Shown one piece after another: positions 11,461 through 60,077 of a DNA stretch of 64,000 nt. The first letter of the stretch is position 1. Each line of letters starts with the position of its first letter. Under the pieces are notes generated by a model, which was not told where the DNA came from, searched no databases, and saw nothing but the letters and a program-made list of their open reading frames with translations. The translations under genes were made by a program, and so were the position numbers. Where the stretch lies: NCBI GenBank assembly GCA_964016885.1, contig OZ024750.1, forward strand, positions 35,216,001 through 35,280,000, read 5' to 3'. This stretch comes from Eledone cirrhosa (taxonomy: Eukaryota).

Positions 11461-11535
11461 TGAAGTGGTAACACAACAGTTAGTTCACCATAGATCTGCT
11501 AAGCTGAAACAATTGTTCTCGGTATGGTGAACTAG

Positions 11536-11619
<84 letters not shown>

Positions 11620-11621
<2 letters not shown>

Positions 11622-11895
11622 CTATCCAGGAAGCTCCAACCGTTAAGGTTGTTTTTTTTCCGGGTATATCAATATTTATTTATAAAACAAATCTGTATTT
11701 TATCTGATGAAAGCGCACCATAATTTGCCTTGGTGGCCCTTGAAATATGTATAATAAAATAAATATGGTTTTATAAATCTAGTTTCCATTTATTAATATA
11801 TCGTGTATTTACTCCACTAATCTGTTGAGTGCTTTATATCAGTTATAAACATTTTTAAGCTTGTTGAATCCCAACAAATTAAATATAACCTCTGC
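11620..11895 (+). mobile_element. Penelope-like pLTR fragment containing a type I hammerhead (11696-11761)
   Basis: tattttat-CTGATGA-stem II-GAAA-tatgta-TA-ataaaata; flanking sequence is similar to the 3' end of the PLE at 43.8-44.0 kb. Confidence 0.7.
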
Positions 11896-12104
11896 ATATC
11901 ATCATTTCATTTTCATCATTTCATTTTACGTCCACTTTTCCCTGCTTGCAAGGGTGGGACGGGAACTGATATATATATATATTTTTTTTTTGTCCTGCAG
12001 GGTGTCCAAAATCACCCTTCTCACCAAGTAAACTTGGTGGGGTTGCCGGAAGAACTGATAGAGTCAACGGCCATCCAAAAGTGTGTAAATATGTATATAC
12101 ACAT

Positions 12105-13611: not shown

Positions 13612-13771
13612 AGAGGTAGAACACAGGAAGGTAATATCCGTAGTGGTAGAGCACTCAGTCCATGGGACGAGTTTGGTAGAAGTGGGAACACAACAGTTAG
13701 TTCACCATACCGAGAACAATTGTTTCACCTTAGAAGATCTATGATGAACTAACTGTTGTGTTACCACTTCT
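13612..13771. mobile_element. Foldback fragment of the HHR-bearing family seen at 59815-60077 (another fragment at 11462-11535)
   Basis: Shared gaagtggtaacacaacagttagttcaccata and gaaacaattgttctc; flanked by (TA)n. Confidence 0.75.
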
Positions 13772-13925
13772 ATATATATATATAGGGTGAAAGCAGCGAT
13801 TCTTTGCTTAAACTTTAATCTGCTATTTTAATAAATATATATATATATATATGTATATGTGTGTGTGTATATATATATATATATGTATGTATATATATAT
13901 ATATACACATATAATATATATATAT

Positions 13926-18631: not shown

Positions 18632-18677
18632 TGGGTTAATGTCTTTACTTGTCACAAGCATTGGATATAAAGAAGTT

Positions 18678-18795
18678 GCTTACATCACCTAATTTACCAA
18701 GTGGTCACCCCGTCTAAGTACTAATTAGGCTCAAAGCTGCTTAATTTTGCTGTTTGAACAACAACCAGTATTTTCAATGTGGTATGGCCATAAAC
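18678..18795 (-). pseudogene. 5S rRNA pseudogene (full length, diverged)
   Basis: Minus strand reads gtttatggccataccacattgaaaatactggtt...ttaagcagctttgagcctaattagtacttagacggggtgaccacttgg...gatgtaagc, colinear with metazoan 5S rRNA including the box A and box C regions. Confidence 0.85.
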
Positions 18796-23133: not shown

Positions 23134-23423
23134 ATTAAATGTATTAAACTAAGATTTGATTGTTTTATATTTTGTATCTCAGCTCTGTAATACATTTGAT
23201 CATTTACATTGAGCCTTTTCTCTTACTGGTAATTGGCTAGTGGTTAGTACTACCCTCTTTATTTATAATTATATATAAATCATATATAATTATAAATATT
23301 ATTATTATTACTATATATATATATATATTAAAGAGTTAAACAAGATTCAATGAGTACATCAAAGAATGAGTTTTACAGTAGATTGGAAGCACTCTACAGC
23401 AAAAAATATTTTCCAGAGTTATT

Positions 23424-23620
23424 AATATTAAAATACAAATATTAATAAAATAGATGTTCTTTTGATCAATTAAATTTTATTATACATATTTCAGAGGTAC
23501 AACAGTACGTCCTCATCAGACAAAATATAATGATACATGACTGTTGTACCTCTGAAATATGTATTATAAAATTTAATTGATCAAAAGAACATCTATTTTA
23601 TTAATATTTGTATTTTAATA
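23424..23620. mobile_element. Foldback insertion with a hammerhead on the minus strand (23474-23526)
   Basis: Arms about 23424-23506 / 23540-23620; minus strand attttgt-CTGATGA-ggacgtactgttgtacctct-GAAA-tatgta-TA-ataaaat. Confidence 0.7.
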
Positions 23621-23717
23621 TATATATATATATATATTAATATATATATATTTTTTTATATATATATATATAAATCATATATAATTATAAATATTATTAT
23701 TATTACTATTTTTTTTT

Positions 23718-24180: not shown

Positions 24181-24217
<37 letters not shown>

Positions 24218-24224
<7 letters not shown>

Positions 24225-24585
24225 TAAACAAATAATGAATAAACAATTCCTTATATTAAACAAAAAAAGTTCATTATTTAACGATCGTTTCTAGGATATA
24301 TATGTGTTATAATTGGTATGCATATTCAACAGATCTATGTACAAAATTATACAAAATTATACAAATTATCAAGATTAAATATACATACCAAACACATATA
24401 TATGCCGTCTTCAGTATGTATATTTAATCTTGATAATTTGTATAATTTTGTATAATTTTGTACATAGATCTGTTGAATATGCATACCAATTATAACACAT
24501 ATATATCCTAGAAACGATCGTTAAATAATGAACTTTTTTTGTTTAATATAAGGAATTGTTTATTCATTATTTGTTTAATATTTTA
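24218..24585. repeat. Near-perfect inverted repeat, ~170-bp arms with ~25-bp spacer
   Basis: 24218-24388 is the reverse complement of 24414-24585. Confidence 0.9.
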
Positions 24586-24717
24586 TCTTGACTCTGTATA
24601 CCGTTTATCTTTCACCGAAAGTGGTTTTTCATTACATCTCTTCTTTCCATGATATCCGGAATACATTGAGTTCTTCATACGGATTGGACACTACCGTAAA
24701 CTCTTGGTAGATTTATC

Positions 24718-24759
<42 letters not shown>

Positions 24760-32060: not shown

Positions 32061-32079
32061 AATATATATATGTAAGATG

Positions 32080-32188
32080 TATAATGTTAAGAGAGAATCT
32101 CACAGCACTCATATTAAGTATCATATATATATATATGATACTAAATATGAGTGCTGTGAGATTCTCTCTTAATATTACACATCTCACA
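32080..32188. repeat. Short foldback centred on (TA)n
   Basis: gagagaatctcacagcactcatatt / aatatgagtgctgtgagattctctc. Confidence 0.8.
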
Positions 32189-32769
32189 TATATGACAGAA
32201 TATATATTTTAATGTTGAACAGAAGTATTCAATAATGAATGTATTCAATAATGATAGTATTCAATAAAAATGATTGAAATAATAAACAGGAAGAAAGAAA
32301 AAGAGGGGAGAAAAATGATTTAATGAAAAAGGGGAGAAAAGAGAGACAAACTCTGCACCCTTGACTGGGCAGTTTTTACCAGTTGTGCCCTGTAGTCTAA
32401 GTGGTGAACGCAATGCTATGGAAAGCAGCCTGTATCACCTACTGCATCAGCTATTCCACCTTCTGAGGACCCTTCCTCAGGTGAGATACACCCCTCTTGA
32501 TCTTTGCGAAGACAGTAGCCTGGTGATTGAAGAAACTAGAGGTGTTGGTGGCTCTTGGCACAAAAATGTAGTGGTTGGTGAAGTTGAAGTATTTTCATAT
32601 CTTCCACTCGTTTGTGTTACAGGTAACAGTGTCTGGGCTTGTAGCCAAAAGAATGAGATTAGAGCCAGAGAGTATGACATGTGGCATCCCAGGTTAAAGA
32701 GTTACACTCCTGTTCATATAATATTTTCTTCTATGTGTAAATAAGATTCCCTTTAACATTTTACCATTT

Positions 32770-33506: not shown

Positions 33507-33936
33507 TGAAACAAAATGAAAACGAAATTTCATTTCTCACTCTTAGTATGGCACTTACTTAAATGTAAGTATGCATGTATACGTACATACATATATGTAT
33601 ACAGACGTACAGTAGCATGCACACATATATATATACATATATACATACATATGCATACAGGTACACATACATATATGCACGTATCAGTTTAGCGGCGCTT
33701 ATTATAACGTCGCTTTGTTCGTTTGTAAACAAACTGAACAGCCTGAATTTATGCCATACGGTGTTAAGGCAACCACGTCACCTTTTTGTTCAACACTGAC
33801 ACAGGAACGATGTACTAGTTTCAAGCTTGTTAGCTATCATCAGCACCGTTTACCCATCTGCCAGATAGTTGAACGTTCGAAAGTATATACTTTCCTTATG
33901 AAAATTAACGGCTGAGCAGCCTAATTTGCATATTGA
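33507..33936 (-). mobile_element. Solo near-monomer of the 466-bp hammerhead repeat (HHR at 33806-33850)
   Basis: Nearly identical to 51848-52275. Confidence 0.92.
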
Positions 33937-35757
33937 CATTCTGACTTCAAATGCTGCCAAATTTATCTTTGCCTTTCATCCTTACTTAGTCGATAACAGA
34001 AAGTACCAGTAACGCACTGGGTTTAATTTAATCAACTTTCCCTCCCCCAAATTGTTGGCCTTTGTGCCTAAATCAGAAATCATTATTATGTCATTCTGAG
34101 TTCAAATCCCGCCGAGGTTAACTTTGCCTTTCATCCTTACGGGGTCAATAAAATAAAGTACCAGTAATGTACTGGGCAAGAACTGGCCTTGTGCCAAAAG
34201 TAGAAACAATAATTATTGTTATGTCCAGGGTGGGTGATTTGGTAGTAATTGGTAGAGTGTCAGACAACATGTTTTGTGGCATAGAGTTATGTCCCTTTAT
34301 GTTCTGAGTTGAAATCCCACTGAGGTTAGCTTTGCCTTTCTTCCTTACGGGGTCAATAAAATAAAGTACCAGTAATGCACTGGGATAATTGCTGGCCTTG
34401 TGTCAAAAGTAGAAACAATAATTATTGTTATGTCCAGGGTGGGTGATTTGGTAGTAATTGGTAGAGTGTCAGACAACATGTTTTGTGGCATAGAGTTATG
34501 TCCCTTTATGTTCTGAGTTGAAATCCCACCGAGGTTAGCTTTGCCTTTCATCCTTACGGGGTCAATAAAATAAAGTACCAGTAATACACTGGATTCAATT
34601 TAATTGATTTTCCCTCTTCCAAATTGTTGGCCCTGTGTCATGGTTTCTGATTTAGACATGGTTTCTGATTTAGACACTGGGGTAATTGCTGGCACAAGGC
34701 GCAAGGCCAGCAATTACCCCAGTGCATTACTGGTACTTTATTTTATTGACCCCGTAAGGAAGAAAGGCAAAGCTAACCTCAGTGGGATTTCAACTCAGAA
34801 CATAAAGGGACATAACTCTATGCCACAAAACATGTTGTCTGACACTCTACCAATTACTACCAAATCACCCACCCTGGACATAACAATAATTATTGTTTCT
34901 ACTTTTGGCACAAGGCCAGTTATTACTCAGTACATTACTGGTACTTTATTTTATTGACACCGTAAGGAAGAAAGGCAAAGTTAACCTCGGTGGGATTTGA
35001 ACTCAGATCGGGTTAGCAGAACATATAGGCAGTAAATTGATTGAGTCATGAGGTAGAAACGTTGAGAGTATTTCTTCCAGATCTCTTCTCTCTGCCCTCA
35101 GCTCAAATTCTGTAATTATCAACTTTGCCTTTCATCCTTTCAAGGTTGATAAAAAAAAGTACCAGTTAAATACTGAGGTTAGTTCTTCCTCTATAACTCT
35201 CCCCCACTCACTCTCTCTCTCTCTCTCTCTCACTGTGTGTGTGGAAAAAAATCAGCTGCGTTTAGACCTGAAGGAAGAAGAGAAGATGAAGAAAACAAAG
35301 AAGAAATAATGGTTTCTACTATAGGCACCAAGCCAGTTATTTGGGGGGAGGAGGGGAGGGGAAAGTCAATTAAATTGACCCCAGTGCATTACTGGTATTT
35401 TATTTTATCAACCCCGTAAGAATGAAAGGTAAAGCTAACCTCGGTGGGATTTGAACTCAGAATGCAAAGGGCCATAACTCTATGCTGCAAAGCATAGTGC
35501 CTGACACTCTACTGATACTGCCAATCCACTGCCCTTAATAATATATAATGATAATAAAAAAAAATAATAATAATAATTATTTCTACTTTTGGCACAAGGC
35601 CAGCAATTATCCCAGTGTATTACTGGTACTTTATTTTATCGAGCCCGTAAGGATGAAAGGCAAAGTTAACTTCGGCGGGATTTGAACTCAGACCATAAAG
35701 GGCCGTAACTCTTTGCTGCAAAGCATGGCGTCCGACACTCTACTGCCAATTCACCAT
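33937..35757. mobile_element. Cluster of Meta-like tRNA SINEs in tandem and inverted arrangement
   Basis: Repeated ctttgcctttcatccttacggggtcaataaaataaagtaccag; ~218-bp tandem at 34095-34600; inverted copy at 34690-35006. Confidence 0.82.
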
Positions 35758-40702: not shown

Positions 40703-41031
40703 ACTGCACAATAGAATGGAAGCATTCAACTCCAGTCTCCAAGTACCATGGCGAAAATAGTATGACAGTAACGATGGTAGTGCCTAAAACCTTTCTGGAC
40801 ATTAAATGCCAATAGGCAATTAGACAGTGATATAGAGTTAGTGCGCTGGTTAGAATTAGATTTCAGGATATTGCAACCAACCACGTGCGTAAGACCAATT
40901 TCGAGTCAATAGGTGAGCGAGAGGGAAAGATAGAGCAGGTATTAGAGTGTATGTATACACATATTTATATTTATGTATGTATATTATATATATATATCGA
41001 TATGTATATTATATATATATAGCGATATTAT

Positions 41032-41157
41032 AGTTTTAATATAGATGAGATTCTACAGGACTAGAACTGTTTCATTCTTTAGAAATCATCAGTAATCTGA
41101 TGATTTCTAAAGAATGAAACAGTTCTAGTCCTGTAGAATCTCATCTATATTAAAACT
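41032..41157. repeat. Perfect ~60-bp-arm palindrome containing back-to-back hammerhead cores
   Basis: CTGATGA-tttctaaagaat-GAAA-ca-GTT on both strands; the 5' strand of stem I is lost at the centre. Confidence 0.75.
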
Positions 41158-41554
41158 TTTATACTCTGCAATGTATTGAGTACCTTACTTACTGTGGTTA
41201 CCTCCGATTCAACCCGGAATAACGTACCTATATCAATATTATATATATATATTAATAAAATAAAGTACTAGTAATGCACTGGGTAATTGCTGGCCTTGTG
41301 CCTAAAATAGAAACAATTATTATTATTATTATAGAAATGACTTTTACAGGTTTCGGACGATTCATTCCTAAGATCATAAATATAAATAAATATATCTATA
41401 CTCTACTAAAGTATTGAGTACCTTTTTCAATTATTGTCACTTCCCGATATACAGCAGGAATCATTCTCTGATACAACTCCTAAGAAACATGTGTAAGGAA
41501 ATGAATAAGGTTTGTTTTAAACGATAGAAGTTGATTTATCTATTGATATACTTG

Positions 41555-42206: not shown

Positions 42207-42210
<4 letters not shown>
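41720..42210 (-). mobile_element. Tx1/L1-like LINE 3' fragment
   Basis: VAMVKEVIWWTR...FTERW resembles L1/Tx1 ORF2 C-termini; aataaa near the 3' end; flanked by (TA)n. Confidence 0.55.
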
Positions 42211-43800
<1,590 letters not shown>

Positions 43801-43930
43801 TAAAGTTATATTTAAAATTGTTGGGTTACAACTAGTAAATATTTATAACTGATATAAAAGCACTCGACAAATACTTGGAGTATATTTACAATATTAAATA
43901 AATGGAAAACTATATTTATAAAACCATATT

Positions 43931-43996
43931 TATTTCATTATATATATTTCGGGGATATCATATTAACAATATGCTATGCCTTCATCAGACAAAATA
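43931..43996 (-). ncRNA. Type I hammerhead in the PLE pLTR
   Basis: Reverse complement of 48669-48734. Confidence 0.7.
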
Positions 43997-45672
43997 CAAT
44001 ATAAACAGTTTTATAGATAAATATATTCGACATACCGTAATAAACATCAACTTCATTTGAAGAGGTTCACTCTAGCAGTGAAAATACAGAGAGAAAGAAA
44101 GAGAGAGAGAAAAGAGGGAAATAGGAAAGAAAGAAAGACAAAACGAAGAAAAGGAAGAAAAAGAAGAAAAAGAAAAAGAAGAAATGCATGGGACAAAATA
44201 GAGAGATGGAAAAATAGATAAAGCGAAGAGCTTCATGTAAAGAGACAGAAAGAGATATATATATATAGAGAGAGAGAGAGGAAGTAGAGATAGATACATA
44301 TATAAATATAGATATAGAAAAATTAGGTAGTGGGAGGTCATTTTGAGTAAGTGTATCAATGATGCATTTATTTATTTATTTATTTATTTATTTAGCTCAA
44401 GTATTAATGTAAGGGAGATATATAGAGAGATATAGAGAGATATAGAGAGAGAAAAAAAAAAAAAAAAATAGCCAGACATATTTGAGGCGTAGAGAACCCT
44501 ATGTTTTAATGTATTAGTATTTATAAAACTTACACTATATTGTAAATATCAGTATTCCTGAATGAAACAAGTATTCACAATGCGTGAAAATTCATTATCT
44601 TATGTTTAGTTTTTTAAAAAATTCATATGTCTATGTGAATCCAACTGATTCACTCCGCAAATTCAAAGTTACCGGAAAACATTCTCAATGTGGTATAAAA
44701 ATTTGAGCGTATTATTATTCTTGCGATTACTCTACAAGATTATCTATCAAGCAGAAATAGAGTGCAGATTTCAATATACTAATCGAAAATATATATTATA
44801 TTATAAGCAGAGATAACAATAATAATGATAATAAGTAAAAATATATAAAAATATAAAAATATAGAATAGAAAACTAAAAGAGAATATTACGAAAGAATAT
44901 TACATAATAAAAATATTGCATATTAAAAATACTACGTATTAAAAATATTACGTATTAAAACTTTACATATAAAAATATTAAAAATAAAAATTTACATATA
45001 AAAATATTAAAAAATATTAAAAATAAAAATAAAATAAAATAAAAAAAATAAAAATATTATAGAATACTACAATACTAAAAGAATAAAAATAAAAATAAAA
45101 ATAAAAATAAAAATAAAAATAAAAATAAAAATAAAAATAAAAATAAAAATAAAAATAAAAATAAAAATAAAAATAAAAATAAAAATAAAAATAAAAATAA
45201 AAATAAAAATAAAAATAAAAATAAAAATAAAAATAAAAATAAAAATAAAAATAAAAATAAAAATAAACCACAAAGAACAACCCTTCAAAGTTAATTGACA
45301 ATATATTGCCAAGTTCACTACAAGACAAAGCCAAAAATTATCTATCAAATCACATCTAGCAAGGAATATCGCAAAAAAAGATTATGATGTCCAATAATGT
45401 CTACATATGCTCCTATATTTAATATATAAGTTTATCAAGTGTAAGGTTAATTAAAAAAAAAAAAAAAATTTGGAGCATCGGCTTTTAGGGTAGCTTAATT
45501 TTTCATGAGGAATGTTTAGATAAAAATAAAAATAAAAATAAAAATAAAAATAAAAATAAAAAATAAATAAAATAAAATAAACAATAAAAAGAGTAAAAAG
45601 AGGGAATCAAAGATTTAGGAATCAAAAGATGTATCGGCTAGTTCTCATATAAATATAAATCAAACTAAATAT

Positions 45673-46915
45673 ACTACATTTTAAATTTAAATTTATATTT
45701 AAACGTTGAGTTTAATCTATGTTTGCAACAACTGAATAAATTTGTCCGTAGGTTAAGGGAATTTTTAGATTTTAGTATAAAGAATATCTCCTCTGCGCAG
45801 AGGTCACATGTCTCAGAGGATGAATTAAAAGGAATCCCTCTTGAGACTATATTCCAAGCCGTCGAATATCTAACGTTATCTAGCTTAAGTTGCCAGAGTA
45901 CACCTGATAGTGCCGTTGAAGATTTTTTATTTGGATCTGTGAAAGAATTCTTGTGGTTATTATAGCGAAGTTTAAATTCCGTCGATGTGGAACCGACGTA
46001 GTTAAAAGAATTAGAGTCAGTATTAACATTACAATTGTATACTATATTTTTAACTAAGCAGTTGTTATTTAACGGACATTTAGATCTATCTCTACAGTTA
46101 CATTTGTTAACTTGTATATTATTTATGCTATTATCAGTAGGTTTTAAGTTCCTATTATTTATTCTATTAATATTTTGTGCTAAATTTTTGGTGGATGAGT
46201 AGGTTAATTTAATTGTATGCCTATTGAAGATTGAGTGGTACCTATGTGTTCTAGGGAAGCGATTATCAAGAGCTTTGAAAAATAATTTAGCGATGTGGGT
46301 TTTAATGTTTAGTGAGAAAGGGGGGGCAAACCAAATTATGTTCCTAGTTCTATTTCTTTTTTGTCCTTTGGAATTATTGTAATGCTTTCTATTATAGTTG
46401 TTAATGTTGTTGCCGTCATTAAAAAGTTGTTACTTTGTTTAGTTTGTTTATCATTATCTATGTACACAATCTTATCAGCATACCCTGCCCTAGCTAGTGC
46501 ATCATTATAGTATTGGGCCTTTTCGTCAAAAATCTTTCTATTCGACGAGATCCTAGAGATACGTTTTTGGACTGAGTTTACTATAGTGTTTTTGACAGAT
46601 CTGGGGTGGTTAGAGTTAAAGTTGACATAGTTTAAGTTTTCATTCAACTTGTGAAAAGGATAGTGGAGACATGTGTTGAGATTTAATGTTATATCTAGGA
46701 AATTGACTATTCAATGGTTGTTCTCAATTTCTATTTTAAGGTTAAAGTAATTAAAAAATTTTGTAATTTGTTTACATTTTCTATTTAGTTCAGGGTTATT
46801 ATTATTAATAAGTAAAAGCATGTCATCCCTATATAAACCTCCGGTAGTACCAGGTATTTTCCTATGTAGCGAATTGATTAAAAATAAGCCCACAAGGTCA
46901 GTTACCTCTGCGCAG
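45673..46915 (-). pseudogene. Penelope-type RT C-terminal half plus GIY-YIG endonuclease (stop- and frameshift-interrupted)
   Basis: SAEVTDLVGLF...GLYRDD; SNHP; WFAPPFS; CNCRDRSKCPLNNNCL; IVYNC...YVGST..FKLRYNNH; CDLCAEE; LNLRTNLFSCCKH. Confidence 0.9.
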
Positions 46916-48668
46916 AGGAGATATTCTTTATACTAAAATCTAAAAATTCCCTTAACCTACGGACAAATTTATTCAGTTGTTGCAAACATAGATTAAACTC
47001 AACGTTTAAATATAAATTTAAATTTAAAATGTAGTATATTTAGTTTGATTTATATTTATATGAGAACTAGCCGATAAATCTTTTGATTCCTAAATCTTTG
47101 ATTCCCTCTTTTTACTCTTTTTATTGTTTATTTTATTTTATTTATTTTTTATTTTTATTTTTATTTTTATCTAAACATTCCTCATGAAAAATTAAGCTAC
47201 CCTAAAAGCCGATGCTCCAAATTTTTTTTTTTTTTTAATTAACCTTACACTTGATAAACTTATATATTAAATATAGGAGCATATGTAGACATTATTGGAC
47301 ATCATAATCTTTTTTTGCGATATTCCTTGCTAGATGTGATTTGATAGATAATTTTTGGCTTTGTCTTGTAGTGAACTTGGCAATATATTGTCAATTAACT
47401 TTGAAGGGTTGTTCTTTGTGGTTTATTTTTATTTTTATTTTCATTTTTATTTTTATTTTTATTTTTATTTTTATTTTTATTTTTATTTTTATTTTTATTT
47501 TTATTTTTATTTTTATTTTTATTTTTATTTTTATTTTTATTTTTATTTTTATTTTTATTTTTATTTTTATTTTTATTTTTATTCTTTTAGTATTGTAGTA
47601 TTCTATAATATTTTTATTTTTTTTATTTTATTTTATTTTTATTTTTAATATTTTTTAATATTTTTATATGTAAATTTTTATTTTTAATATTTTTATATGT
47701 AAAGTTTTAATACGTAATATTTTTAATACGTAGTATTTTTAATATGCAATATTTTTATTATGTAATATTCTTTCGTAATATTCTCTTTTAGTTTTCTATT
47801 CTATATTTCTATATTTTTATATATTTTTACTTATTATCATTATTATTGTTATCTCTGCTTATAATATAATATATATTTTCGATTAGTATATTGAAATCTG
47901 CTCTCTATTTCTGCTTGATAGATAATCTTGTAGAGTAATCGCAAGAATAATAATACGCTCAAATTTTTATACCACATTGAGAATGTTTTCCGGTAACTTT
48001 GAATTTGCGGAGTGAATCAGTTGGATTCACATAGACATATGAATTTTTTAAAAAACTAAACATAAGATAATGAATTTTCACGCATTGTGAATACTTGTTT
48101 CATTCAGGAATACTGATATTTACAATATAGTGTAAGTTTTATAAATACTAATACATTAAAACATAGGGTTCTCTACGCCTCAAATATGTCTGGCTATTTT
48201 TTTTTTATTTTTTCTCTCTCTATATCTCTCTATATCTCTCTATATATCTCCCTTACATTAATACTTGAGCTAAATAAATAAATAAATAAATAAATAAATG
48301 CATCATTGATACACTTACTCAAAATGACCTCCCACTACCTAATTTTTCTATATCTATATTTATATATGTATCTATCTCTACTTCCTCTCTCTCTCTATAT
48401 ATATATATATCTCTTTCTGTCTCTTTACATGAAGCTCTTCGCTTTATCTATTTTTCCATCTCTCTATTTTGTCCCATGCATTTCTTCTTTTTCTTTTTCT
48501 TCTTTTTCTTCCTTTTCTTCGTTTTGTCTTTCTTTCTTTCCTATTTCCCTCTTTTCTCTCTCTCTTTCTTTCTCTCTGTATTTTCACTGCTAGAGTGAAC
48601 CTCTTCAAATGAAGTTGATGTTTATTACGGTATGTCGAATATATTTATCTATAAAACTGTTTATATTG

Positions 48669-48734
48669 TATTTTGTCTGATGAAGGCATAGCATATTGTT
48701 AATATGATATCCCCGAAATATATATAATGAAATA
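48669..48734 (+). ncRNA. Type I hammerhead in the inverted PLE arm
   Basis: tattttgt-CTGATGA-stem II (catatt/aatatg)-GAAA-tatata-TA-atgaaata. Confidence 0.7.
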
Positions 48735-48772
48735 AATATGGTTTTATAAATATAGTTTTCCATTTATTTAAT

Positions 48773-48862
<90 letters not shown>

Positions 48863-48863
48863 C

Positions 48864-48924
<61 letters not shown>

Positions 48925-48925
48925 C

Positions 48926-48998
<73 letters not shown>

Positions 48999-48999
48999 T

Positions 49000-51772
49000 A
49001 TAACTTTGAATAACTTTGAAATGTTTTGGCCAGTATTGGCCCAGGCCATGTCTAACTTAATAGCACCACCTGGCGAGGTCTTTCAATTCAGGATTTGGGC
49101 ACCATGGCCCATTCGAGAAGAGAATTACTGTTTGCGGAGACATATCCGGGTGTGGGTGGTTTGTCCGGGATTACTTGGGGGAATTTGTCCAAAGACATCT
49201 TGAATTTTGTGTGGTCAGTTTCTGTTTTGACGTGTCCTGGTGTGATGTTGAAGAGAGCAGGGCCGATTGAGGTGAAATAATTGTGCCGTATTGTTGTTAT
49301 GAGTTGCGATTTAGATTTTTGAATGGGACGGATAGCACGGGGCCCAAGCCTTGGGTGTATCTTGAAGGTGATGCCAACATCATTTGGGCAGTGATGATGG
49401 AACATTTTCCACATCATGCAGATAATATAACGCTCACGGCGACGTTGGAGTGAGTAAAGTTTCAGGTTTTCTAATCAACCCCAGTAGTCAAGGTCTGACA
49501 TGCCATCTATCTTTTTCGTGATTGCCCTTTGAGGAGCTTCAAGTTTCATGATACTTTGTTTCGTGTGGGGAGACCACAGTGGACAACAGTATTCAAGGTG
49601 TGGTCGGGCAAAAGTAGAGAAGAGAAGGATAATGGTGCGGGAATCTCTCGACTGGAAGGTTCTGAGGATCCAGGAACACATTCTGCGGGCCATGTCAACT
49701 TTGCTGCTTATATGCGTGGTCCAGCTTATGTTGCTGTCCACGGTTACTCCCAAGTCTCTGATGTTGTTGGATGCCACGAGAGTTTCCCCGGAGGGAAGGG
49801 AGTACGGGAGTTTCAGAGCATCCTCTTTTCCAAAGTGGATCAGTTCGAATTTGTCTTCGTTCAGTAACATGTTGTTCTTTTCCGCCCATTGGGTAACAGC
49901 CAGTAGGTCTGACTGAAGGCTTATCCGGTCATCCACGCCATTGATGACCTTTTGGAGCTTGGAATCATCAGCGAAAATTTTAATGTTGCTGTGTTTGATG
50001 ATGTCAGTGATGTCATTAATATAGATGATGAAGAGAAGTGGGCCCAACACTGTGCCTTGTGGGACCCACTACTGACTTTGGCTGGGCTGGATTTGACTCC
50101 CTCAACTACAACATGTTGGGTTCTGTTTGACAGGAAGCTCTTGATCCACTGCAGCAGCTTTCCAGTGACACCAATATTGGACAGCTTTCTCAGTAGAATG
50201 TTATGATCAACCCTGTCAAAGGCCTTGCTGAAATCAAGGTAGATAACATCAGTGTTGGAACCCTCTCCCAAGGCTCTCAAAATGTCATCAAAGTGATGCA
50301 GTAGCTGCGTCAGGCAATCTCTTCCATTACGGAATCCATGGTGGTTGGAGTTCAGCATATTGTTACTCTCAAGGAAGTGGGTCATTCGCGATCTCACCAC
50401 TCTCTCAAATACCTTAATGATATGAGAGGTGAGTGAGATTGGACGGTAATTCACGGCAAGGGATTTGTTTCCCTTTTTGAAAACTGGGACAACAGACTGG
50501 GATAGAAGGTTTTCTGGCACATATCCAGCATCCAGTGAGTTCCGCCACAGATTGGCAAGAGGAGATGCAAGTTGGTGTTGACACGCCTTCAAGACACAAG
50601 CAGGGAACCTATCGGGACCTACTGCTGAATTATGCTTGATTTCCTTTATTGCCGCCAAGACATCAGGGGCGCCAAACGTTATGTCCGATAAGGTGTAATG
50701 GGGAGTAACATCGCCGATACAGCCCAGATCGGCCATATCAGGATTGCTGAAAACAGAGCAGTATTGTTTCTGCAGTATCTCACCCATGGTTTTAGCATTG
50801 TCTTGAAGAGTGCCATTTTCATCAATTAGAGGGCCAACAGTAGAGCCAGTGATTTTGTGTTTTTTTGCAAATGAAAAGAACACTTTGGGATTGAGTTTGA
50901 TCTTCTCAATGGCCCAGGCCTCCTCAGCTCTTCTCTGATTGTTGATGAGGGACATTATGTTGTTTTGGAGGTTATGTTTTTTAATCTCTAGTGATGAAAT
51001 GGCAGTTAAGTTGATGTGTTGCTGCTGACAGTATTTCAGCTTGTTGATTTTTTTGTTCGTTCTCTTAATTTTTCTGATGAGCGTTTTTCTATTTCTAGGG
51101 ATTCTGCTCTTAGATTTGTTTATAGTTCTTAATGGGGTGTGTTTAGCACATATGTTTGTAACAGTGTCCACAAATGTCTGCCAGGACTTTTTGATGTTAG
51201 TGGGTGTATGAGTGTGCGTGAAGGACCAGTCGACATGTGCAAGATCATGACTGATCGCTTCCCAGTTTGCATTGTGGAAATCCATAGCGTCAAACGGATG
51301 GACAGGAGAGAAGACATTGGGTTTGTATATTGGACGGTGGAATCTCAGATCACAGAGAACCATTTCATGATCAGAGAGTAGAGTTTTCTCCACTGCAATA
51401 TTGTGGATATTGTCAGTGTGATTGCTGAAAATTAAGTCTAGGACGTTTTTGTGGCACCTCGTTGGTTCGAGCACCAGTTGGGATAGGAAGAAATCATCCA
51501 TGAAGTCAAGAAGCGATTCCACAGCTTCCCTGTCAGAGGTTGAGGCAGAAGAACCTGGTGGCAGGCTGTTTGTGGACCAGTCAACTCCGGGGAGGTTGAA
51601 GTCCCCCATCATTAAGATGTTGTCAGGGTGACACTCTTGGATGAAACACTTTATGCTGTTGAGGCATTCCTTGAAGCATGGTACAGGCGTTTGGGGTGGC
51701 CTATAGAGCCCAACTACTAATAGGTTGTTGGTTTGACTGAATACAGTGACTGCCTCACAGTATCCATTAGTG
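49000..51772 (-). mobile_element. CR1-group LINE, 5' truncated within the APE domain; ORF2 with one frameshift and one stop
   Basis: YRPP, MGDFN, LDLIF, SDH (APE); NYRPISLTS, YLDFSKAFD, FADDSK, RPHLEYCCPLWSP (RT); frameshift near 50070; in-frame TGA at 49475; tail (ttcaaagtta)x2. Confidence 0.93.
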
Positions 51773-51799
51773 AATATATATATATATATATTCACTAAT

Positions 51800-51847
<48 letters not shown>

Positions 51848-52992
51848 TGAAACAAAATGAAAACGAAATTTCATTTCTCACTCTTAGTATGGCACTTACT
51901 TAAATGTAAGTATGCATGTATACGTACATACATATATGTATACAGACGTACAGTAGCATGCACATATATATATATATATACATATATACATACATATGCA
52001 TACAGGTACACATACATATATGCACGTATCAGTTTAGCGGCGCTAACGTCGCTTTGTTCGTTTGTAAACAAACTGAACAGCCTGAATTTATGCCATACAG
52101 TGTTAAGGCAACCACGTCACCTTTTTGTTCAACACTGACACAGGAACGATGTACTAGTTTCAAGCTTGTTAGCTATCATCAGCACCGTTTACCCATCTGC
52201 CAGATAGTTGAACGTTCGAAAGTATATACTTTCCTTATGAAAATTAACGGCTGAGCAGCCTAATTTGCATATTGAGTGAGTTAAATCGGTCAGGCATACC
52301 GAAAACGATAAATTGAAACAAAATGAAAACGAAATTTCATTTCTCACTCTTAGTATGGCACTTACTTAAATGTAAGTATGCATGTATACGTACATACATA
52401 TATGTATACAGACGTACAGTAGCATGCACATATATATATATATATACATATATACATACATATGCATACAGGTACACACACATATATGCACGTATCAGTT
52501 TAGCGGCGCTAACGTCGCTTTGTTCGTTTGTAAACAAACTGAACAGCCTGAATTTATGCCATACGGTGTTAAGGCAACCACGTCACCTTTTTGTTCAACA
52601 CTGACACACCGATTTAACTCACTCAATATGCAAATTAGGCTGCTCAGCCGTTAATTTTCATAAGGAAAGTATATACTTTCGAACGTTCAACTATCTGGCA
52701 GATGGGTAAACGGTGCTGATGATAGCTAACAAGCTTGAAACTAGTACATCGTTCCTGTGTCAGTGTTGAACAAAAAGGTGATGTGGTTGCCTTAACACCG
52801 TATGGCATAAATTCAGGCTGTTCAGTTTGTTTACAAACGAACAAAGCGACGTTAGCGCCGCTAAACTGATACGTGCATATATGTATGTGTACCTGTATGC
52901 ATATGTATGTATATATGTATATATATATATATATGTGCATGCTACTGTACGTCTGTATACATATATGTATGTACGTATACATGCATACTTAC

Positions 52993-53077
<85 letters not shown>

Positions 53078-53823
53078 TATGCATGTATACGTACATACAT
53101 ATATGTATACAGACGTACAGTAGCATGCACATATATATATATATATACATATATACATACATATGCATACAGGTACACATACATATATGCACGTATCAGT
53201 TTAGCGGCGCTAACGTCGCTTTGTTCGTTTGTAAACAAACTGAACAGCCTGAATTTATGCCATACGGTGTTAAGGCAACCACGTCACCTTTTTGTTCAAC
53301 ACTGACACAGGAACGATGTACTAGTTTCAAGCTTGTTAGCTATCATCAGCACCGTTTACCCATCTGCCAGATAGTTGAACGTTCGAAAGTATATACTTTC
53401 CTTATGAAAATTAACGGCTGAGCAGCCTAATTTGCATATTGAGTGAGTTAAATCGGTCAGGCATACCGAAAACGATAAATTGAAACAAAATGAAAACGAA
53501 ATTTCATTTCTCACTCTTAGTATGGCACTTACTTAAATGTAAGTATGCATGTATACGTACATACATATATGTATACAGACGTTAGCGCCGCTAAACTGAT
53601 ACGTGCATATATGTATGTGTACCTGTATGCATATGTATGTATATATGTATATATATATATATATGTGCATGCTACTGTACGTCTGTATACATATATGTAT
53701 GTACGTATACATGCATACTTACATTTAAGTAAGTGCCATACTAAGAGTGAGAAATGAAATTTCGTTTTCATTTTGTTTCAATTTATCGTTTTCGGTATGC
53801 CTGACCGATTTAACTCACTCAAT

Positions 53824-53871
53824 ATGCAAATTAGGCTGCTCAGCCGTTAATTTTCATAAGGAAAGTATATA
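53824..53871 (+). promoter_or_regulatory. Candidate snRNA-type internal promoter (octamer ATGCAAAT, PSE-like block, TATA-like motif), one per unit
   Basis: ATGCAAAT at 53824-53831 and TAATTTTCATAAGGAAAGTATATA at 53848-53871; conserved in the sister family at 42932-42978. Confidence 0.5.
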
Positions 53872-53904
53872 CTTTCGAACGTTCAACTATCTGGCAGATG
53901 GGTA

Positions 53905-53949
53905 AACGGTGCTGATGATAGCTAACAAGCTTGAAACTAGTACATCGTT
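53905..53949 (+). ncRNA. Type I hammerhead ribozyme (representative copy), predicted cleavage after GUA at 53942
   Basis: 7-bp stem I, complete CUGAUGA/GAAA core, 3-bp stem II, palindromic ACUAGU stem III. Confidence 0.9.
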
Positions 53950-56900
53950 CCTGTGTCAGTGTTGAACAAAAAGGTGACGTGGTTGCCTTAACACCGTATG
54001 GCATAAATTCAGGCTGTTCAGTTTGTTTACAAACGAACAAAGCGACGTTAGCGCCGCTAAACTGATACGTGCATATATGTATGTGTACCTGTATGCATAT
54101 GTATGTATATATGTATATATATATATATATGTGCATGCTACTGTACGTCTGTATACATATATGTATGTACGTATACATGCATACTTACATTTAAGTAAGT
54201 GCCATACTAAGAGTGAGAAATGAAATTTCGTTTTCATTTTGTTTCAATTTATCGTTTTCGGTATGCCTGACCGATTTAACTCACTCAATATGCAAATTAG
54301 GCTGCTCAGCCGTTAATTTTCATAAGGAAAGTATATACTTTCGAACGTTCAACTATCTGGCAGATGGGTAAACGGTGCTGATGATAGCTAACAAGCTTGA
54401 AACTAGTACATCGTTCCTGTGTCAGTGTTGAACAAAAAGGTGACGTGGTTGCCTTAACACCGTATGGCATAAATTCAGGCTGTTCAGTTTGTTTACAAAC
54501 GAACAAAGCGACGTTAGCGCCGCTAAACTGATACGTGCATATATGTATGTGTACCTGTATGCATATGTATGTATATATGTATATATATATATGTATGTGC
54601 ATGCTACTGTACGTCTGTATACATATATGTATGTACGTATACATGCATACTTACATTTAAGTAAGTGCCATACTAAGAGTGAGAAATGAAATTTCGTTTT
54701 CATTTTGTTTCAATTTATCGTTTTCGGCATGCCTGACCGATTTAACTCACTCAATATGCAAATTAGGCTGCTCAGCCGTTAATTTTCATAAGGAAAGTAT
54801 ATACTTTCGAACGTTCAACTATCTGGCAGATGGGTAAACGGTGCTGATGATAGCTAACAAGCTTGAAACTAGTACATCGTTCCTGTGTCAGTGTTGAACA
54901 AAAAGGTGACGTGGTTGCCTTAACACCGTATGGCATAAATTCAGGCTGTTCAGTTTGTTTACAAACGAACAAAGCGACGTTAGCGCCGCTAAACTGATAC
55001 GTGCATATATGTATGTGTACCTGTATGCATATGTATGTATATATGTATATATATATATATATGTGCATGCTACTGTACGTCTGTATACATATATGTATGT
55101 ACGTATACATGCATACTTACATTTAAGTAAGTGCCATACTAAGAGTGAGAAATGAAATTTCGTTTTCATTTTGTTTCAATTTATCGTTTTCGGTATGCCT
55201 GACCGATTTAACTCACTCAATATGCAAATTAGGCTGCTCAGCCGTTAATTTTCATAAGGAAAGTATATACTTTCGAACGTTCAACTATCTGGCAGATGGG
55301 TAAACGGTGCTGATGATAGCTAACAAGCTTGAAACTAGTACATCGTTCCTGTGTCAGTGTTGAACAAAAAGGTGACGTGGTTGCCTTAACACCGTATGGC
55401 ATAAATTCAGGCTGTTCAGTTTGTTTACAAACGAACAAAGCGACGTTAGCGCCGCTAAACTGATACGTGCATATATGTATGTGTACCTGTATGCATATGT
55501 ATGTATATATGTATATATATATATATATGTGCATGCTACTGTACGTCTGTATACATATATGTATGTACGTATACATGCATACTTACATTTAAGTAAGTGC
55601 CATACTAAGAGTGAGAAATGAAATTTCGTTTTCATTTTGTTTCAATTTATCGTTTTCGGTATGCCTGACCGATTTAACTCACTCAATATGCAAATTAGGC
55701 TGCTCAGCCGTTAATTTTCATAAGGAAAGTATATACTTTCGAACGTTCAACTATCTGGCAGATGGGTAAACGGTGCTGATGATAGCTAACAAGCTTGAAA
55801 CTAGTACATCGTTCCTGTGTCAGTGTTGAACAAAAAGGTGACGTGGTTGCCTTAACACCGTATGGCATAAATTCAGGCTGTTCAGTTTGTTTACAAACGA
55901 ACAAAGCGACGTTAGCGCCGCTAAACTGATACGTGCATATATGTATGTGTACCTGTATGCATATGTATGTATATATGTATATATATATATATATGTGCAT
56001 GCTACTGTACGTCTGTATACATATATGTATGTACGTATACATGCATACTTACATTTAAGTAAGTGCCATACTAAGAGTGAGAAATGAAATTTCGTTTTCA
56101 TTTTGTTTCAATTTATCGTTTTCGGTATGCCTGACCGATTTAACTCACTCAATATGCAAATTAGGCTGCTCAGCCGTTAATTTTCATAAGGAAAGTATAT
56201 ACTTTCGAACGTTCAACTATCTGGCAGATGGGTAAACGGTGCTGATGATAGCTAACAAGCTTGAAACTAGTACATCGTTCCTGTGTCAGTGTTGAACAAA
56301 AAGGTGACGTGGTTGCCTTAACACCGTATGGCATAAATTCAGGCTGTTCAGTTTGTTTACAAACGAACAAAGCGACGTTAGCGCCGCTAAACTGATACGT
56401 GCATATATGTATGTGTACCTGTATGCATATGTATGTATATATGTATATATATATATATATGTGCATGCTACTGTACGTCTGTATACATATATGTATGTAC
56501 GTATACATGCATACTTACATTTAAGTAAGTGCCATACTAAGAGTGAGAAATGAAATTTCGTTTTCATTTTGTTTCAATTTATCGTTTTCGGTATGCCTGA
56601 CCGATTTAACTCACTCAATATGCAAATTAGGCTGCTCAGCCGTTAATTTTCATAAGGAAAGTATATACTTTCGAACGTTCAACTATCTGGCAGATGGGTA
56701 AACGGTGCTGATGATAGCTAACAAGCTTGAAACTAGTACATCGTTCCTGTGTCAGTGTTGAACAAAAAGGTGACGTGGTTGCCTTAACACCGTATGGCAT
56801 AAATTCAGGCTGTTCAGTTTGTTTACAAACGAACAAAGCGACGTTAGCGCCGCTAAACTGATACGTGCATATATGTATGTGTACCTGTATGCATATGTAT

Positions 56901-59571
56901 GTATATATGTATATATATATATATATGTGCATGCTACTGTACGTCTGTATACATATATGTATGTACGTATACATGCATACTTACATTTAAGTAAGTGCCA
57001 TACTAAGAGTGAGAAATGAAATTTCGTTTTCATTTTGTTTCAATTTATCGTTTTCGGTATGCCTGACCGATTTAACTCACTCAATATGCAAATTAGGCTG
57101 CTCAGCCGTTAATTTTCATAAGGAAAGTATATACTTTCGAACGTTCAACTATCTGGCAGATGGGTAAACGGTGCTGATGATAGCTAACAAGCTTGAAACT
57201 AGTACATCGTTCCTGTGTCAGTGTTGAACAAAAAGGTGACGTGGTTGCCTTAACACCGTATGGCATAAATTCAGGCTGTTCAGTTTGTTTACAAACGAAC
57301 AAAGCGACGTTAGCGCCGCTAAACTGATACGTGCATATATGTATGTGTACCTGTATGCATATGTATGTATATATGTATATATATATATATATGTGCATGC
57401 TACTGTACGTCTGTATACATATATGTATGTACGTATACATGCATACTTACATTTAAGTAAGTGCCATACTAAGAGTGAGAAATGAAATTTCGTTTTCATT
57501 TTGTTTCAATTTATCGTTTTCGGTATGCCTGACCGATTTAACTCACTCAATATGCAAATTAGGCTGCTCAGCCGTTAATTTTCATAAGGAAAGTATATAC
57601 TTTCGAACGTTCAACTATCTGGCAGATGGGTAAACGGTGCTGATGATAGCTAACAAGCTTGAAACTAGTACATCGTTCCTGTGTCAGTGTTGAACAAAAA
57701 GGTGACGTGGTTGCCTTAACACCGTATGGCATAAATTCAGGCTGTTCAGTTTGTTTACAAACGAACAAAGCGACGTTAGCGCCGCTAAACTGATACGTGC
57801 ATATATGTATGTGTACCTGTATGCATATGTATGTATATATGTATATATATATATATATGTGCATGCTACTGTACGTCTGTATACATATATGTATGTACGT
57901 ATACATGCATACTTACATTTAAGTAAGTGCCATACTAAGAGTGAGAAATGAAATTTCGTTTTCATTTTGTTTCAATTTATCGTTTTCGGTATGCCTGACC
58001 GATTTAACTCACTCAATATGCAAATTAGGCTGCTCAGCCGTTAATTTTCATAAGGAAAGTATATACTTTCGAACGTTCAACTATCTGGCAGATGGGTAAA
58101 CGGTGCTGATGATAGCTAACAAGCTTGAAACTAGTACATCGTTCCTGTGTCAGTGTTGAACAAAAAGGTGACGTGGTTGCCTTAACACCGTATGGCATAA
58201 ATTCAGGCTGTTCAGTTTGTTTACAAACGAACAAAGCGACGTTAGCGCCGCTAAACTGATACGTGCATATATGTATGTGTACCTGTATGCATATGTATGT
58301 ATATATGTATATATATATATATATGTGCATGCTACTGTACGTCTGTATACATATATGTATGTACGTATACATGCATACTTACATTTAAGTAAGTGCCATA
58401 CTAAGAGTGAGAAATGAAATTTCGTTTTCATTTTGTTTCAATTTATCGTTTTCGGTATGCCTGACCGATTTAACTCACTCAATATGCAAATTAGGCTGCT
58501 CAGCCGTTAATTTTCATAAGGAAAGTATATACTTTCGAACGTTCAACTATCTGGCAGATGGGTAAACGGTGCTGATGATAGCTAACAAGCTTGAAACTAG
58601 TACATCGTTCCTGTGTCAGTGTTGAACAAAAAGGTGACGTGGTTGCCTTAACACCGTATGGCATAAATTCAGGCTGTTCAGTTTGTTTACAAACGAACAA
58701 AGCGACGTTAGCGCCGCTAAACTGATACGTGCATATATGTATGTGTACCTGTATGCATATGTATGTATATATGTATATATATATATATATGTGCATGCTA
58801 CTGTACGTCTGTATACATATATGTATGTACGTATACATGCATACTTACATTTAAGTAAGTGCCATACTAAGAGTGAGAAATGAAATTTCGTTTTCATTTT
58901 GTTTCAATTTATCGTTTTCGGTATGCCTGACCGATTTAACTCACTCAATATGCAAATTAGGCTGCTCAGCCGTTAATTTTCATAAGGAAAGTATATACTT
59001 TCGAACGTTCAACTATCTGGCAGATGGGTAAACGGTGCTGATGATAGCTAACAAGCTTGAAACTAGTACATCGTTCCTGTGTCAGTGTTGAACAAAAAGG
59101 TGACGTGGTTGCCTTAACACCGTATGGCATAAATTCAGGCTGTTCAGTTTGTTTACAAACGAACAAAGCGACGTTAGCGCCGCTAAACTGATACGTGCAT
59201 ATATGTATGTGTACCTGTATGCATATGTATGTATATATGTATATATATATATATATGTGCATGCTACTGTACGTCTGTATACATATATGTATGTACGTAT
59301 ACATGCATACTTACATTTAAGTAAGTGCCATACTAAGAGTGAGAAATGAAATTTCGTTTTCATTTTGTTTCAATTTATCGTTTTCGGTATGCCTGACCGA
59401 TTTAACTCACTCAATATGCAAATTAGGCTGCTCAGCCGTTAATTTTCATAAGGAAAGTATATACTTTCGAACGTTCAACTATCTGGCAGATGGGTAAACG
59501 GTGCTGATGATAGCTAACAAGCTTGAAACTAGTACATCGTTCCTGTATATATATATATATAGGTGTGTGGC

Positions 59572-59790: not shown

Positions 59791-59814
59791 CTTATATATA
59801 TATATATATATAGA

Positions 59815-60077
59815 TAGAAGTGGTAACACAACTGTTAGTTCACCATAACGAGAACAATTTTTTCACCTTAGCGGATCTTCAGCTCATAATGGACATGGTT
59901 ATATGGAACAGGAAGGACAACCGTATAACCATGTCCATTACGAGCTGAAGATCCGCTAAGGTGAAACAATTGTTCTCATTATGGTGAACTAACTGTTGTG
60001 TTACCACTTCTATCTAACTCGTCCCATGGACTGAGTGCTCTACCACTGCGGATATTATCTTCCAGTGTTCTACCTCT
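59815..60077. mobile_element. Foldback element with two divergent hammerheads (59850-59885 minus, 59942-59977 plus)
   Basis: gag-CTGAAGA-tcc-gctaa-ggt-GAAA-caattg-TT-ctc; arms about 59815-59908 / 59927-60012. Confidence 0.8.

What the first reader, a model, noticed from the sequence alone, without database searches (positions are those of the whole stretch)
51843..53600. Repeated strand switches at one end of the ribozyme array, resembling Penelope inverted pLTRs
Seen: orientation flips three times. The first is at about 52607 (ctgacac|accgattt). The second is across a (TA)n tract at 52996-53073. The third is at about 53580 via a shared GACGT microhomology. After that, 12.8 uninterrupted units follow. 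The sister family flips likewise at about 42678. Both ends sit in (TA)n, and the right end stops 4 nt after the predicted cleavage-site arm of the last HHR (59546). Inference: rolling reverse transcription of a circular or multimeric RNA with template switching, plausibly by a Penelope-type RT, rather than simple unequal crossover.
Basis: partly seen in the sequence, partly recalled or inferred. Interest (0 to 1): 0.7.

Follow-up and report, generated by a model that had tools for sequence, protein, structure and literature searches.

The report
Four-armed ribozyme repeat, Penelope footprint
A 466-base non-coding repeat with a predicted self-cutting RNA motif sits in TA-repeat DNA as four back-to-back pieces, the same layout as a Penelope-type jumping gene 3 kb away, which suggests that such an enzyme likely copied the RNA into several broken DNA ends rather than one copy flipping three times.

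Summary
The three flips are in the assembly as described, but they are not three template switches. The locus is four arms of a 466-nt hammerhead retrozyme. 52608 and 53578-53582 are head-to-head joins. The (TA)39 tract at 52996-53073 lies between two RNA 3' ends and reads as target DNA. Three of four 3' ends fall at two recurring sites (unit 144-150; 203-209), matched in the sister family. A Hydra-like Penelope element at 43800-48776 has the same head-to-head, staggered, TA-flanked build. That build is known for Penelope-like elements, and a retrozyme-Penelope link is already proposed in print; the two-armed footprint on retrozymes was not found in my searches. Peculiar here: the right end (unit 377) is 12 nt past the cleavage site and in phase with arm A's inner end (375-376; chance 1.5-6%), hinting at one reverse-transcription run split between the flanks. 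Not shown: read support (junction 52608 was unbridged in 4 of 4 runs; inconclusive), RNA, rolling-circle copying, or that all 12.8 units date from insertion. This scan noted the two-armed pattern many times elsewhere in this genome.

The parts
49002..51775 (-). 5'-truncated APE-RT LINE forming the left flank; truncated at the (TA)n target
   Evidence: ORF 49921-51870; Pfam RVT_1 E=4.6e-16, Exo_endo_phos_2 E=3e-14
51774..51843 (.). Left (TA)n target, interrupted by an inverted copy of the last ~12-14 nt of the LINE
   Evidence: sequence
51842..52608 (-). Arm A, 1.65 units; RNA 3' end at unit 209 ('long' site) abutting (TA)n; inner end at unit 375/376
   Evidence: a (TA)n loose end right behind unit 209 also in 1 contig of run X7
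52608..52608 (.). Junction 1: head-to-head (5'-5') join of A and B, 1-nt overlap, arms offset by 148 nt on the unit
   Evidence: not bridged in 4 of 4 runs
52608..52997 (+). Arm B, 0.84 unit; 3' end at unit 148-150 ('short' site, loop of the predicted ACTTA/TAAGT hairpin)
52996..53073 (.). Junction 2: (TA)39 tract between two RNA 3' ends (tail-to-tail); inferred target DNA
   Evidence: C is not a copy of B
53074..53582 (-). Arm C, 1.09 units; 3' end at unit 142-144 ('short' site)
53578..53582 (.). Junction 3: head-to-head join of C and D through GACGT microhomology
53578..59546 (+). Arm D, 12.81 units, 2 private variants; 3' end at unit 376/377, off the usual sites and in phase with A's inner end
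59497..59541 (+). Last minimal type I hammerhead motif (7-bp stem I, CUGAUGA, 4-bp stem II, GAAAC-UA-GUA; predicted cleavage after 59534); 16 copies in the four arms
   Evidence: motif scan (23 cores in the window; 1 core in 20 shuffles); Rfam HH9 E=0.039, 18.5 bits, below gathering 52; no HHR at gathering threshold
59546..59561 (.). Right (TA)8 target, followed by a tRNA-like SINE-type repeat
   Evidence: sequence; repeat matches; the SINE label is my reading
42266..43293 (.). Sister retrozyme (469-nt unit): two head-to-head arms joined at TTTGT; 3' ends at positions homologous to the main family's long and short sites; both in (TA)n
43800..48776 (.). 5'-truncated Hydra-like Penelope element: long arm (-, 43800-46911, RT C-terminal part plus GIY-YIG-type EN, broken ORF) and short inverted arm (+, 46904-48776); HHR motif in both; both 3' ends in (TA)n
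33507..33936 (-). One-armed copy of the main family (other haplotype, 6-nt insertion); 3' end at unit ~203 next to TA

Best explanation
This is a non-coding hammerhead retrozyme locus made of four arms that were likely written into cut (TA)n DNA by target-primed reverse transcription, most likely by a borrowed Penelope-like (Hydra-type) RT-endonuclease. Shown: four arms; every RNA 3' end faces a TA tract; the two true joins are head-to-head; three of four 3' ends lie at two recurring sites shared with a sister family; a coding PLE next door has the same build. Inferred: each free DNA end primes its own cDNA at an internal long or short start site (dual priming), and cDNA ends are then joined head-to-head with 1-5 nt of microhomology. 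The middle flip is a TA fragment primed from both ends, not a template switch. Because A's inner end and D's outer end meet in phase, I slightly favour one compound event in which A and D are one run split between the two flanks (twin-priming-like) with B-(TA)39-C caught between them (about 0.4) over two separate two-armed insertions in one tract (about 0.3). Circle versus linear multimer template, and how many of D's units date from insertion, are open.
For: Arm map. 13 of 14 tabulated 3' ends are followed within 2 nt by (TA)3, against 607 of 53,007 background positions; 10 of the 14 were defined by alignment without using the TA tract and all 10 pass. The sister's two ends align with unit 209 and about 148. 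4 of 6 HHR-bearing loci in the window are head-to-head. 8 of 9 hand-picked two-armed elements have one repeat end 0-4 nt from TA and the other 56-134 nt from it. Neither sister arm is a contiguous copy of the other, so two template copies were needed. The neighbouring protein has YRDD, CxCx5C, CxxC..E and N..CxH and no CCHH, the features given for Hydra PLEs, nearly all of which insert in (TA)n (PMC8557442 section 11). PLE RT extends both target strands and starts at two internal sites in vitro (PMC11167929). Dual and twin priming are described for L1 (PMC2837659 passages). A/D phase match within 1-3 nt: 1.5% by chance, about 6% over four inner ends.
Against: No listed contig bridged junction 52608 in 4 of 4 runs. 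The unit has no BLAST similarity to the neighbouring PLE's 3' region, so that family is not shown to be the partner. D's 3' end breaks the two-site rule. Junction 1 has only 1 nt of overlap (46% by chance). The stagger (59-65 nt here) is longer than the published 30-40-nt tail. No TSD can be read inside TA. The two-armed set was picked by hand, and 5 of its 9 members fail my HHR scan.
Confidence: 0.7

Rival explanations
1. One reading: one continuous cDNA made by rolling reverse transcription switches template strand three times.
For: All four arms share one haplotype apart from 5 private variants, whereas the copy at 33507 differs and the family is variable in run X1. Junction 3 has 5-nt microhomology.
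Against: Junction 2 joins two 3' ends through 78 nt of pure TA that is not in the unit (the unit's own tract is about 17 nt). B and C end at the site used by the sister's outer end. A strand switch would need an antisense template. The shared haplotype may just be the commonest one (X4's single contig matches it).
Confidence: 0.1
2. Self-priming or fold-back, as hypothesised for Penelope head-to-head repeats (PMC3846280): one arm is copied from the other after hairpin priming.
For: B lies within A's span, C is an exact 509-nt substring of D, and the PLE short arm lies within the long arm. The short elements have near-symmetric palindromes with 4-33-nt spacers. The PLE junction sits in a palindrome.
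Against: In the sister neither arm contains the other, and they differ by a 3-nt indel. Junction offsets here are 148 and about 101 nt. Fold-back does not explain why short arms stop at one recurring site.
Confidence: 0.1
3. The insertion was short, and most of D's 12.8 units came later by unequal crossover or slippage, or were homogenised in assembly. This is compatible with the best explanation and concerns array length only.
For: All 5 private variants are in the first 2887 of 7705 nt (p about 0.007 if uniform; post hoc) and the last 10 units are invariant. The 2026 preprint cites unequal crossover as the accepted model of satellite expansion.
Against: D's 2 variants are each in 1 of 13 passes and were not propagated. 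Arms A and C already exceed one unit, so multimer-length templates were copied.
Confidence: 0.35
4. The inversions at this locus are library chimeras or a mis-assembly.
For: Junction 52608 was not bridged in 4 of 4 public runs. PLE tandem/inverted structures are known to trouble assemblies (PMC8557442).
Against: The junctions are offset, not symmetric fold-backs. Arms carry private variants. Ends recur at homologous positions across families. Older two-armed elements have arms diverged by up to 4-6%. The runs may be other individuals, and contigs drop rare forms.
Confidence: 0.08

Closest known systems
Metazoan non-LTR retrozymes (PMC7229834, passages and Discussion read; bioRxiv 10.64898/2026.07.22.740005, parts 1-3 of 5 read)
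   Same: Tandem non-coding unit of a few hundred nt, low GC, minimal type I HHR motif in every unit, stable predicted circular fold; PLE mobilisation and tandem cDNA from circRNA are proposed there.
   Different: The word 'inverted' does not occur in PMC7229834 and occurs once in the preprint. In the parts read neither describes head-to-head arms, recurring 3' ends or (TA)n targeting for retrozymes. Expression and cleavage are not shown here.
EN+ Penelope-like elements, Hydra clade (PMC8557442, passages and section 11; PMC3846280, passages)
   Same: Inverted 5'-truncated copy, head-to-head; extension at one end only; partial tandems; HHR; (TA)n targets; non-autonomous multicopy derivatives reported for Chlamys.
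   Different: The array encodes nothing, has four arms and up to 12.8 units, its stagger is 59-65 nt rather than 30-40, and it shows no sequence similarity to the neighbouring PLE.
Anolis Poseidon PLE in vitro (PMC11167929, parts 1-2 of 4 read)
   Same: Both target strands are nicked and extended; RT starts at two internal sites that match the genomic ends; ends are not at the HHR cleavage site.
   Different: Another clade; a complete two-armed integration product and a circular template were not shown in the parts read.
L1 twin priming and dual priming (PMC2837659, passages)
   Same: Both broken ends act as primers and give inverted pieces; an internal second priming near where the first cDNA ends would match the A/D phase relation.
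   Different: No poly(A) tail, no L1-type target site or readable TSD; a third, two-armed piece lies between A and D.

Membership tests
Non-LTR retrozyme | [quoted passage not shown] | tested here: met
   Own motif scan, 16 cores in the four arms, 1 core in 20 shuffles; Rfam HH9 only E=0.039, below gathering
Non-LTR retrozyme | Tandem non-coding unit of a few hundred nt, GC under 50% | tested here: met
   466 nt x 12.8, slightly above the 150-450 of PMC7229834 but within the 51-972 of the preprint; GC about 0.36; only low-complexity ORFs of 120 aa or more
Non-LTR retrozyme | Stable self-paired circular monomer | tested here: met
   Predicted -152.4 kcal/mol against -106.5 +/- 7.2 in 60 shuffles, 0 of 60 as low; part of this comes from the AU-rich palindrome
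Non-LTR retrozyme | TSD longer than 4 bp | tested here: inconclusive
   All ends lie in (TA)n
Non-LTR retrozyme | Self-cleavage and expression as linear and circular RNA | not testable with these tools
   No RNA holder listed
Penelope-like element (autonomous) | RT plus GIY-YIG ORF in the array | tested here: not met
   No such ORF; the array can only be non-autonomous
PLE-type insertion footprint | Head-to-head inverted 5'-truncated copy with an extension on one end | tested here: met
   A|B and C|D joins; long/short ends 59-65 nt apart; D is an exception
PLE-type insertion footprint | Sequence kinship of the unit to the pLTR of an autonomous PLE | tested here: not met
   No BLAST hit to the one PLE family in the window; other families could not be searched, no genome held
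Hydra-clade PLE (neighbour 43800-48776) | C-terminal EN, CxCx5C linker, CxxC and CxH, no CCHH, HHR, (TA)n target | tested here: met
   against PMC8557442 section 11; ESM Atlas look-alikes include GIY-YIG clusters at 0.95-0.96; no Pfam hit
Hydra-clade PLE (neighbour 43800-48776) | RWK and DKT motifs; placement in the RT tree | not tested
   The copy is 5'-truncated before these motifs; no reference set was held
Twin priming (L1-type geometry) | Second primer starts where the first cDNA ends | tested here: inconclusive
   A inner end 375/376, D outer end 376/377; chance 1.5-6%; one locus

The most novel reading that the evidence does not exclude
The locus is one integration event in which a Penelope-type RT copied a 466-nt ribozyme RNA circle about 14.4 times in a single run, was handed from the left broken end to the right one mid-run (arm A to arm D, in phase), and an excised (TA)39 fragment primed at both ends (arms B and C) was stitched in between. 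It would be a genomic snapshot of rolling-circle, multi-primer PLE integration.
Probability: 0.25. Interest if true: 0.7.

Novelty: new variant of a known kind. Interest (0 to 1): 0.45.

Why it matters
How PLEs make their tandem/inverted insertions is called an open task in PMC8557442, and retrozyme mobilisation by PLEs rests on co-occurrence and pLTR kinship in the papers read. Retrozyme arms that share the PLE footprint (head-to-head, two recurring 3' ends, TA targets) would be structural evidence for that partnership and give exact RT start sites to test in vitro. This locus adds a compound case that could separate dual priming, self-priming and primer hand-over. It is one unverified locus, and its general pattern extends a known PLE structure.

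Tried and rejected
No whole genome was held, so no genome-wide survey of ends and no empty site. Rfam at gathering threshold found no HHR. No RNA holder listed: no evidence on expression either way. One search (one unit on X1, X7, X4, X24) listed only the tandem joint; single-locus strand-change joints would fall under the 1% share filter and unit positions 47-141 were skipped, so this is no test of inversions. X24 laid 0 reads (no test); no listed piece crosses 52608 by more than 1 nt in X1, X2, X3 (one sample) or X7; 1929 pieces were not shown, but the longest are kept; inconclusive because the individual may differ and contigs drop rare forms. Exact HHR pattern in metagenome contigs: 0 matches. 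The loose pattern in viral contigs gave 121 single matches, not examined and taken as chance. PLE protein: no relatives among 174 candidate stretches in metagenome contigs; 1 hit among 824 longer proteins, unnamed, with no informative Pfam family. Rejected: the right end set by HHR cleavage (12 nt off; PMC11167929 also found no reads ending at the site); junction 2 as a fold-back; an arm-wide editing mark (4 variants at multi-pass positions each occur in one pass only; the AU hairpin could not be compared with runs). Left out of the two-armed count: the TA-centred palindrome 32066-32193 and the inverted repeats at 34095-35743 (not classified). Literature searches; the library lacks most subscription journals. 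No supplementary files were read: the preprint's are closed, and Fig. S9 of PMC7229834 (life-cycle model) and files S1/S2 of PMC8557442 may bear on novelty. The host was not identified; 'octopus' was a guess from recall.

Full report
Observation. The window is repeat-rich animal-type DNA; no whole genome was held. Against a 466-nt unit the region 51842-59546 parses into four arms: A (51842-52608, minus, unit 375 to 209, 1.65 units), B (52608-52997, plus, 227 to 150), a pure (TA)39 tract (52996-53073), C (53074-53582, minus, 102 to 144, 1.09 units) and D (53578-59546, plus, 1 to 377, 12.81 units; TRF 12.8). The arms differ from the unit at only 5 positions.

The unit. Each unit has a minimal type I hammerhead motif with predicted cleavage after unit position 365. 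My scan found 23 cores at 6 loci of the window, against 1 core in 20 shuffles. Rfam gives only a sub-threshold HH9 match (E=0.039; none at gathering). The circular monomer folds at -152.4 kcal/mol against -106.5 +/- 7.2 in 60 shuffles, partly through an AU palindrome. This fits metazoan non-LTR retrozymes (PMC7229834, passages and Discussion; bioRxiv 10.64898/2026.07.22.740005, parts 1-3 of 5). The family is abundant and variable in run X1 (4132 contigs on one unit). Cleavage and expression are untested.

Re-reading the flips. With the ribozyme strand as sense, junctions 52608 and 53580 are head-to-head (5'-5'), while the TA tract lies between two 3' ends. C is not a fold-back of B: it lacks B's variant and last 4-6 nt and covers about 125 nt that B lacks. 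So there are two joins and one piece of inferred target DNA. The 3' ends recur: A at 209 and the copy at 33507 at about 203 (long site); B at 148-150 and C at 142-144 (short site, a predicted hairpin). The sister's two ends align with the same two sites, and one X7 contig has (TA)n right behind position 209 (it may be this same locus). 13 of 14 tabulated ends are followed within 2 nt by (TA)3, against 607 of 53,007 background positions; 10 of the 14 were fixed by alignment alone and all 10 pass.

Built-in control. [quoted passage not shown] These are the features given for Hydra-clade PLEs, nearly all of which insert in (TA)n (PMC8557442 section 11). Pfam found nothing; the ESM Atlas look-alikes include GIY-YIG clusters. 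It has the same build: long arm and short inverted arm, head-to-head (an 8-nt overlap inferred from the protein), an HHR motif in both arms, both 3' ends in TA, about 80-95 nt apart. 4 of 6 HHR loci in the window are head-to-head and 2 are one-armed. 8 of 9 hand-picked two-armed elements show one long and one short end at TA, but 5 of the 9 fail my HHR scan. The unit shows no BLAST similarity to this PLE, so the partner family is not identified.

Mechanism. Known: PLE insertions often carry an inverted 5'-truncated copy and a tail at one end (PMC8557442 passages; PMC3846280 passages). A PLE protein nicks and extends both target strands and starts at two internal RNA sites, independently of HHR cleavage (PMC11167929, parts 1-2 of 4). 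Dual and twin priming are described for L1 (PMC2837659 passages). Inferred: each free end in the cut TA tract primes its own cDNA and the cDNA ends are joined with short microhomology (5 nt has chance 1.1%, 1 nt 46%). The sister argues against pure fold-back, since neither arm is a contiguous copy of the other, although B lies within A's span and C within D.

The odd end. D ends at unit 376/377, 11-12 nt past the cleavage site, where the other main-family and sister ends lie 228-310 nt past it; a cleaved RNA would end at 365. A's inner end is 375/376, so A and D meet in phase (1.5% by chance, about 6% over four inner ends; noticed post hoc). One compound event would explain both facts: A and D as one run shared between the flanks, with B-(TA)39-C caught between. 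Two separate insertions (A|B with both usual ends, as in the sister; C|D with an odd or later-trimmed end) remain nearly as likely. I put them at about 0.4 and 0.3.

Results against. No listed contig bridged 52608 in X1, X2, X3 (one sample) or X7; these may be other individuals and contigs drop rare forms, so read support is missing rather than refuted. The other junctions were not tested. No mark is shared by all passes of an arm, so rolling on a circle is not shown. All 5 variants lie in the first 2887 of 7705 nt, which leaves later expansion or assembly homogenisation of D open; the 2026 preprint leans to crossover. An artefact is unlikely because the junctions are offset by 148 and about 101 nt, the ends recur across families, and older two-armed elements have diverged arms.

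Novelty. The parts are known: retrozymes, PLE inverted ends, TA targeting, and proposed PLE mobilisation. A two-armed, fixed-end footprint on retrozyme arrays was not found in searches or in the passages read; supplements were not seen. Earlier notes of this scan report the same two-armed pattern on other DNA of this genome. My reading was noted before I saw them, and they are not independent evidence. One of them prompted the shared-mark test, which was negative here. Verdict: a new variant of a known kind, interest 0.45.

Noticed in passing
runs X4-X20: Runs labelled with 15 other organisms or habitats hold much of the 466-nt unit. In the one laid (X4) it is a single 470-nt circular contig at depth 7, identical where covered; Hi-C raw reads from the study of another holder laid 0 reads (no test). 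Cross-contamination by a very high-copy repeat is my guess; wider spread is not excluded.
   Followed up: partly
window 51762-51801: The LINE's truncated end is repeated inverted (about 12-14 nt) around a (TA)8 spacer just left of arm A, like a folded-back and extended DNA end.
   Followed up: no
window 42210-59561: Sister retrozyme, PLE, LINE and the main array are chained end to end, each boundary a (TA)n tract: an insertion hot spot.
   Followed up: partly
window 11481-11534, 13614-13772, 59811-60075: A short family with an HHR-like CTGAAGA..GAAAC core occurs three times as near-palindromic two-armed pieces, with long and short ends about 60-64 nt apart in two of them.
   Followed up: partly
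window 11620-11899, 23329-23621: Two further HHR-bearing 3' ends related to the Hydra-like PLE; their long ends align with the PLE's end at 43800.
   Followed up: partly
window 24216-24720, 41026-41240, 32066-32193: More TA-flanked palindromic elements; the first two are staggered, the third is centred on a TA tract and unclassified.
   Followed up: partly
window 52479, 54593 and the copy at 33507-33936: Three A-to-G differences (RNA sense) fall in the long AU-rich hairpin of the unit; RNA editing or microsatellite slippage, not separable here.
   Followed up: partly
window 18677-18795: Diverged 5S rRNA-like sequence on the minus strand (Rfam 60 bits).
   Followed up: no
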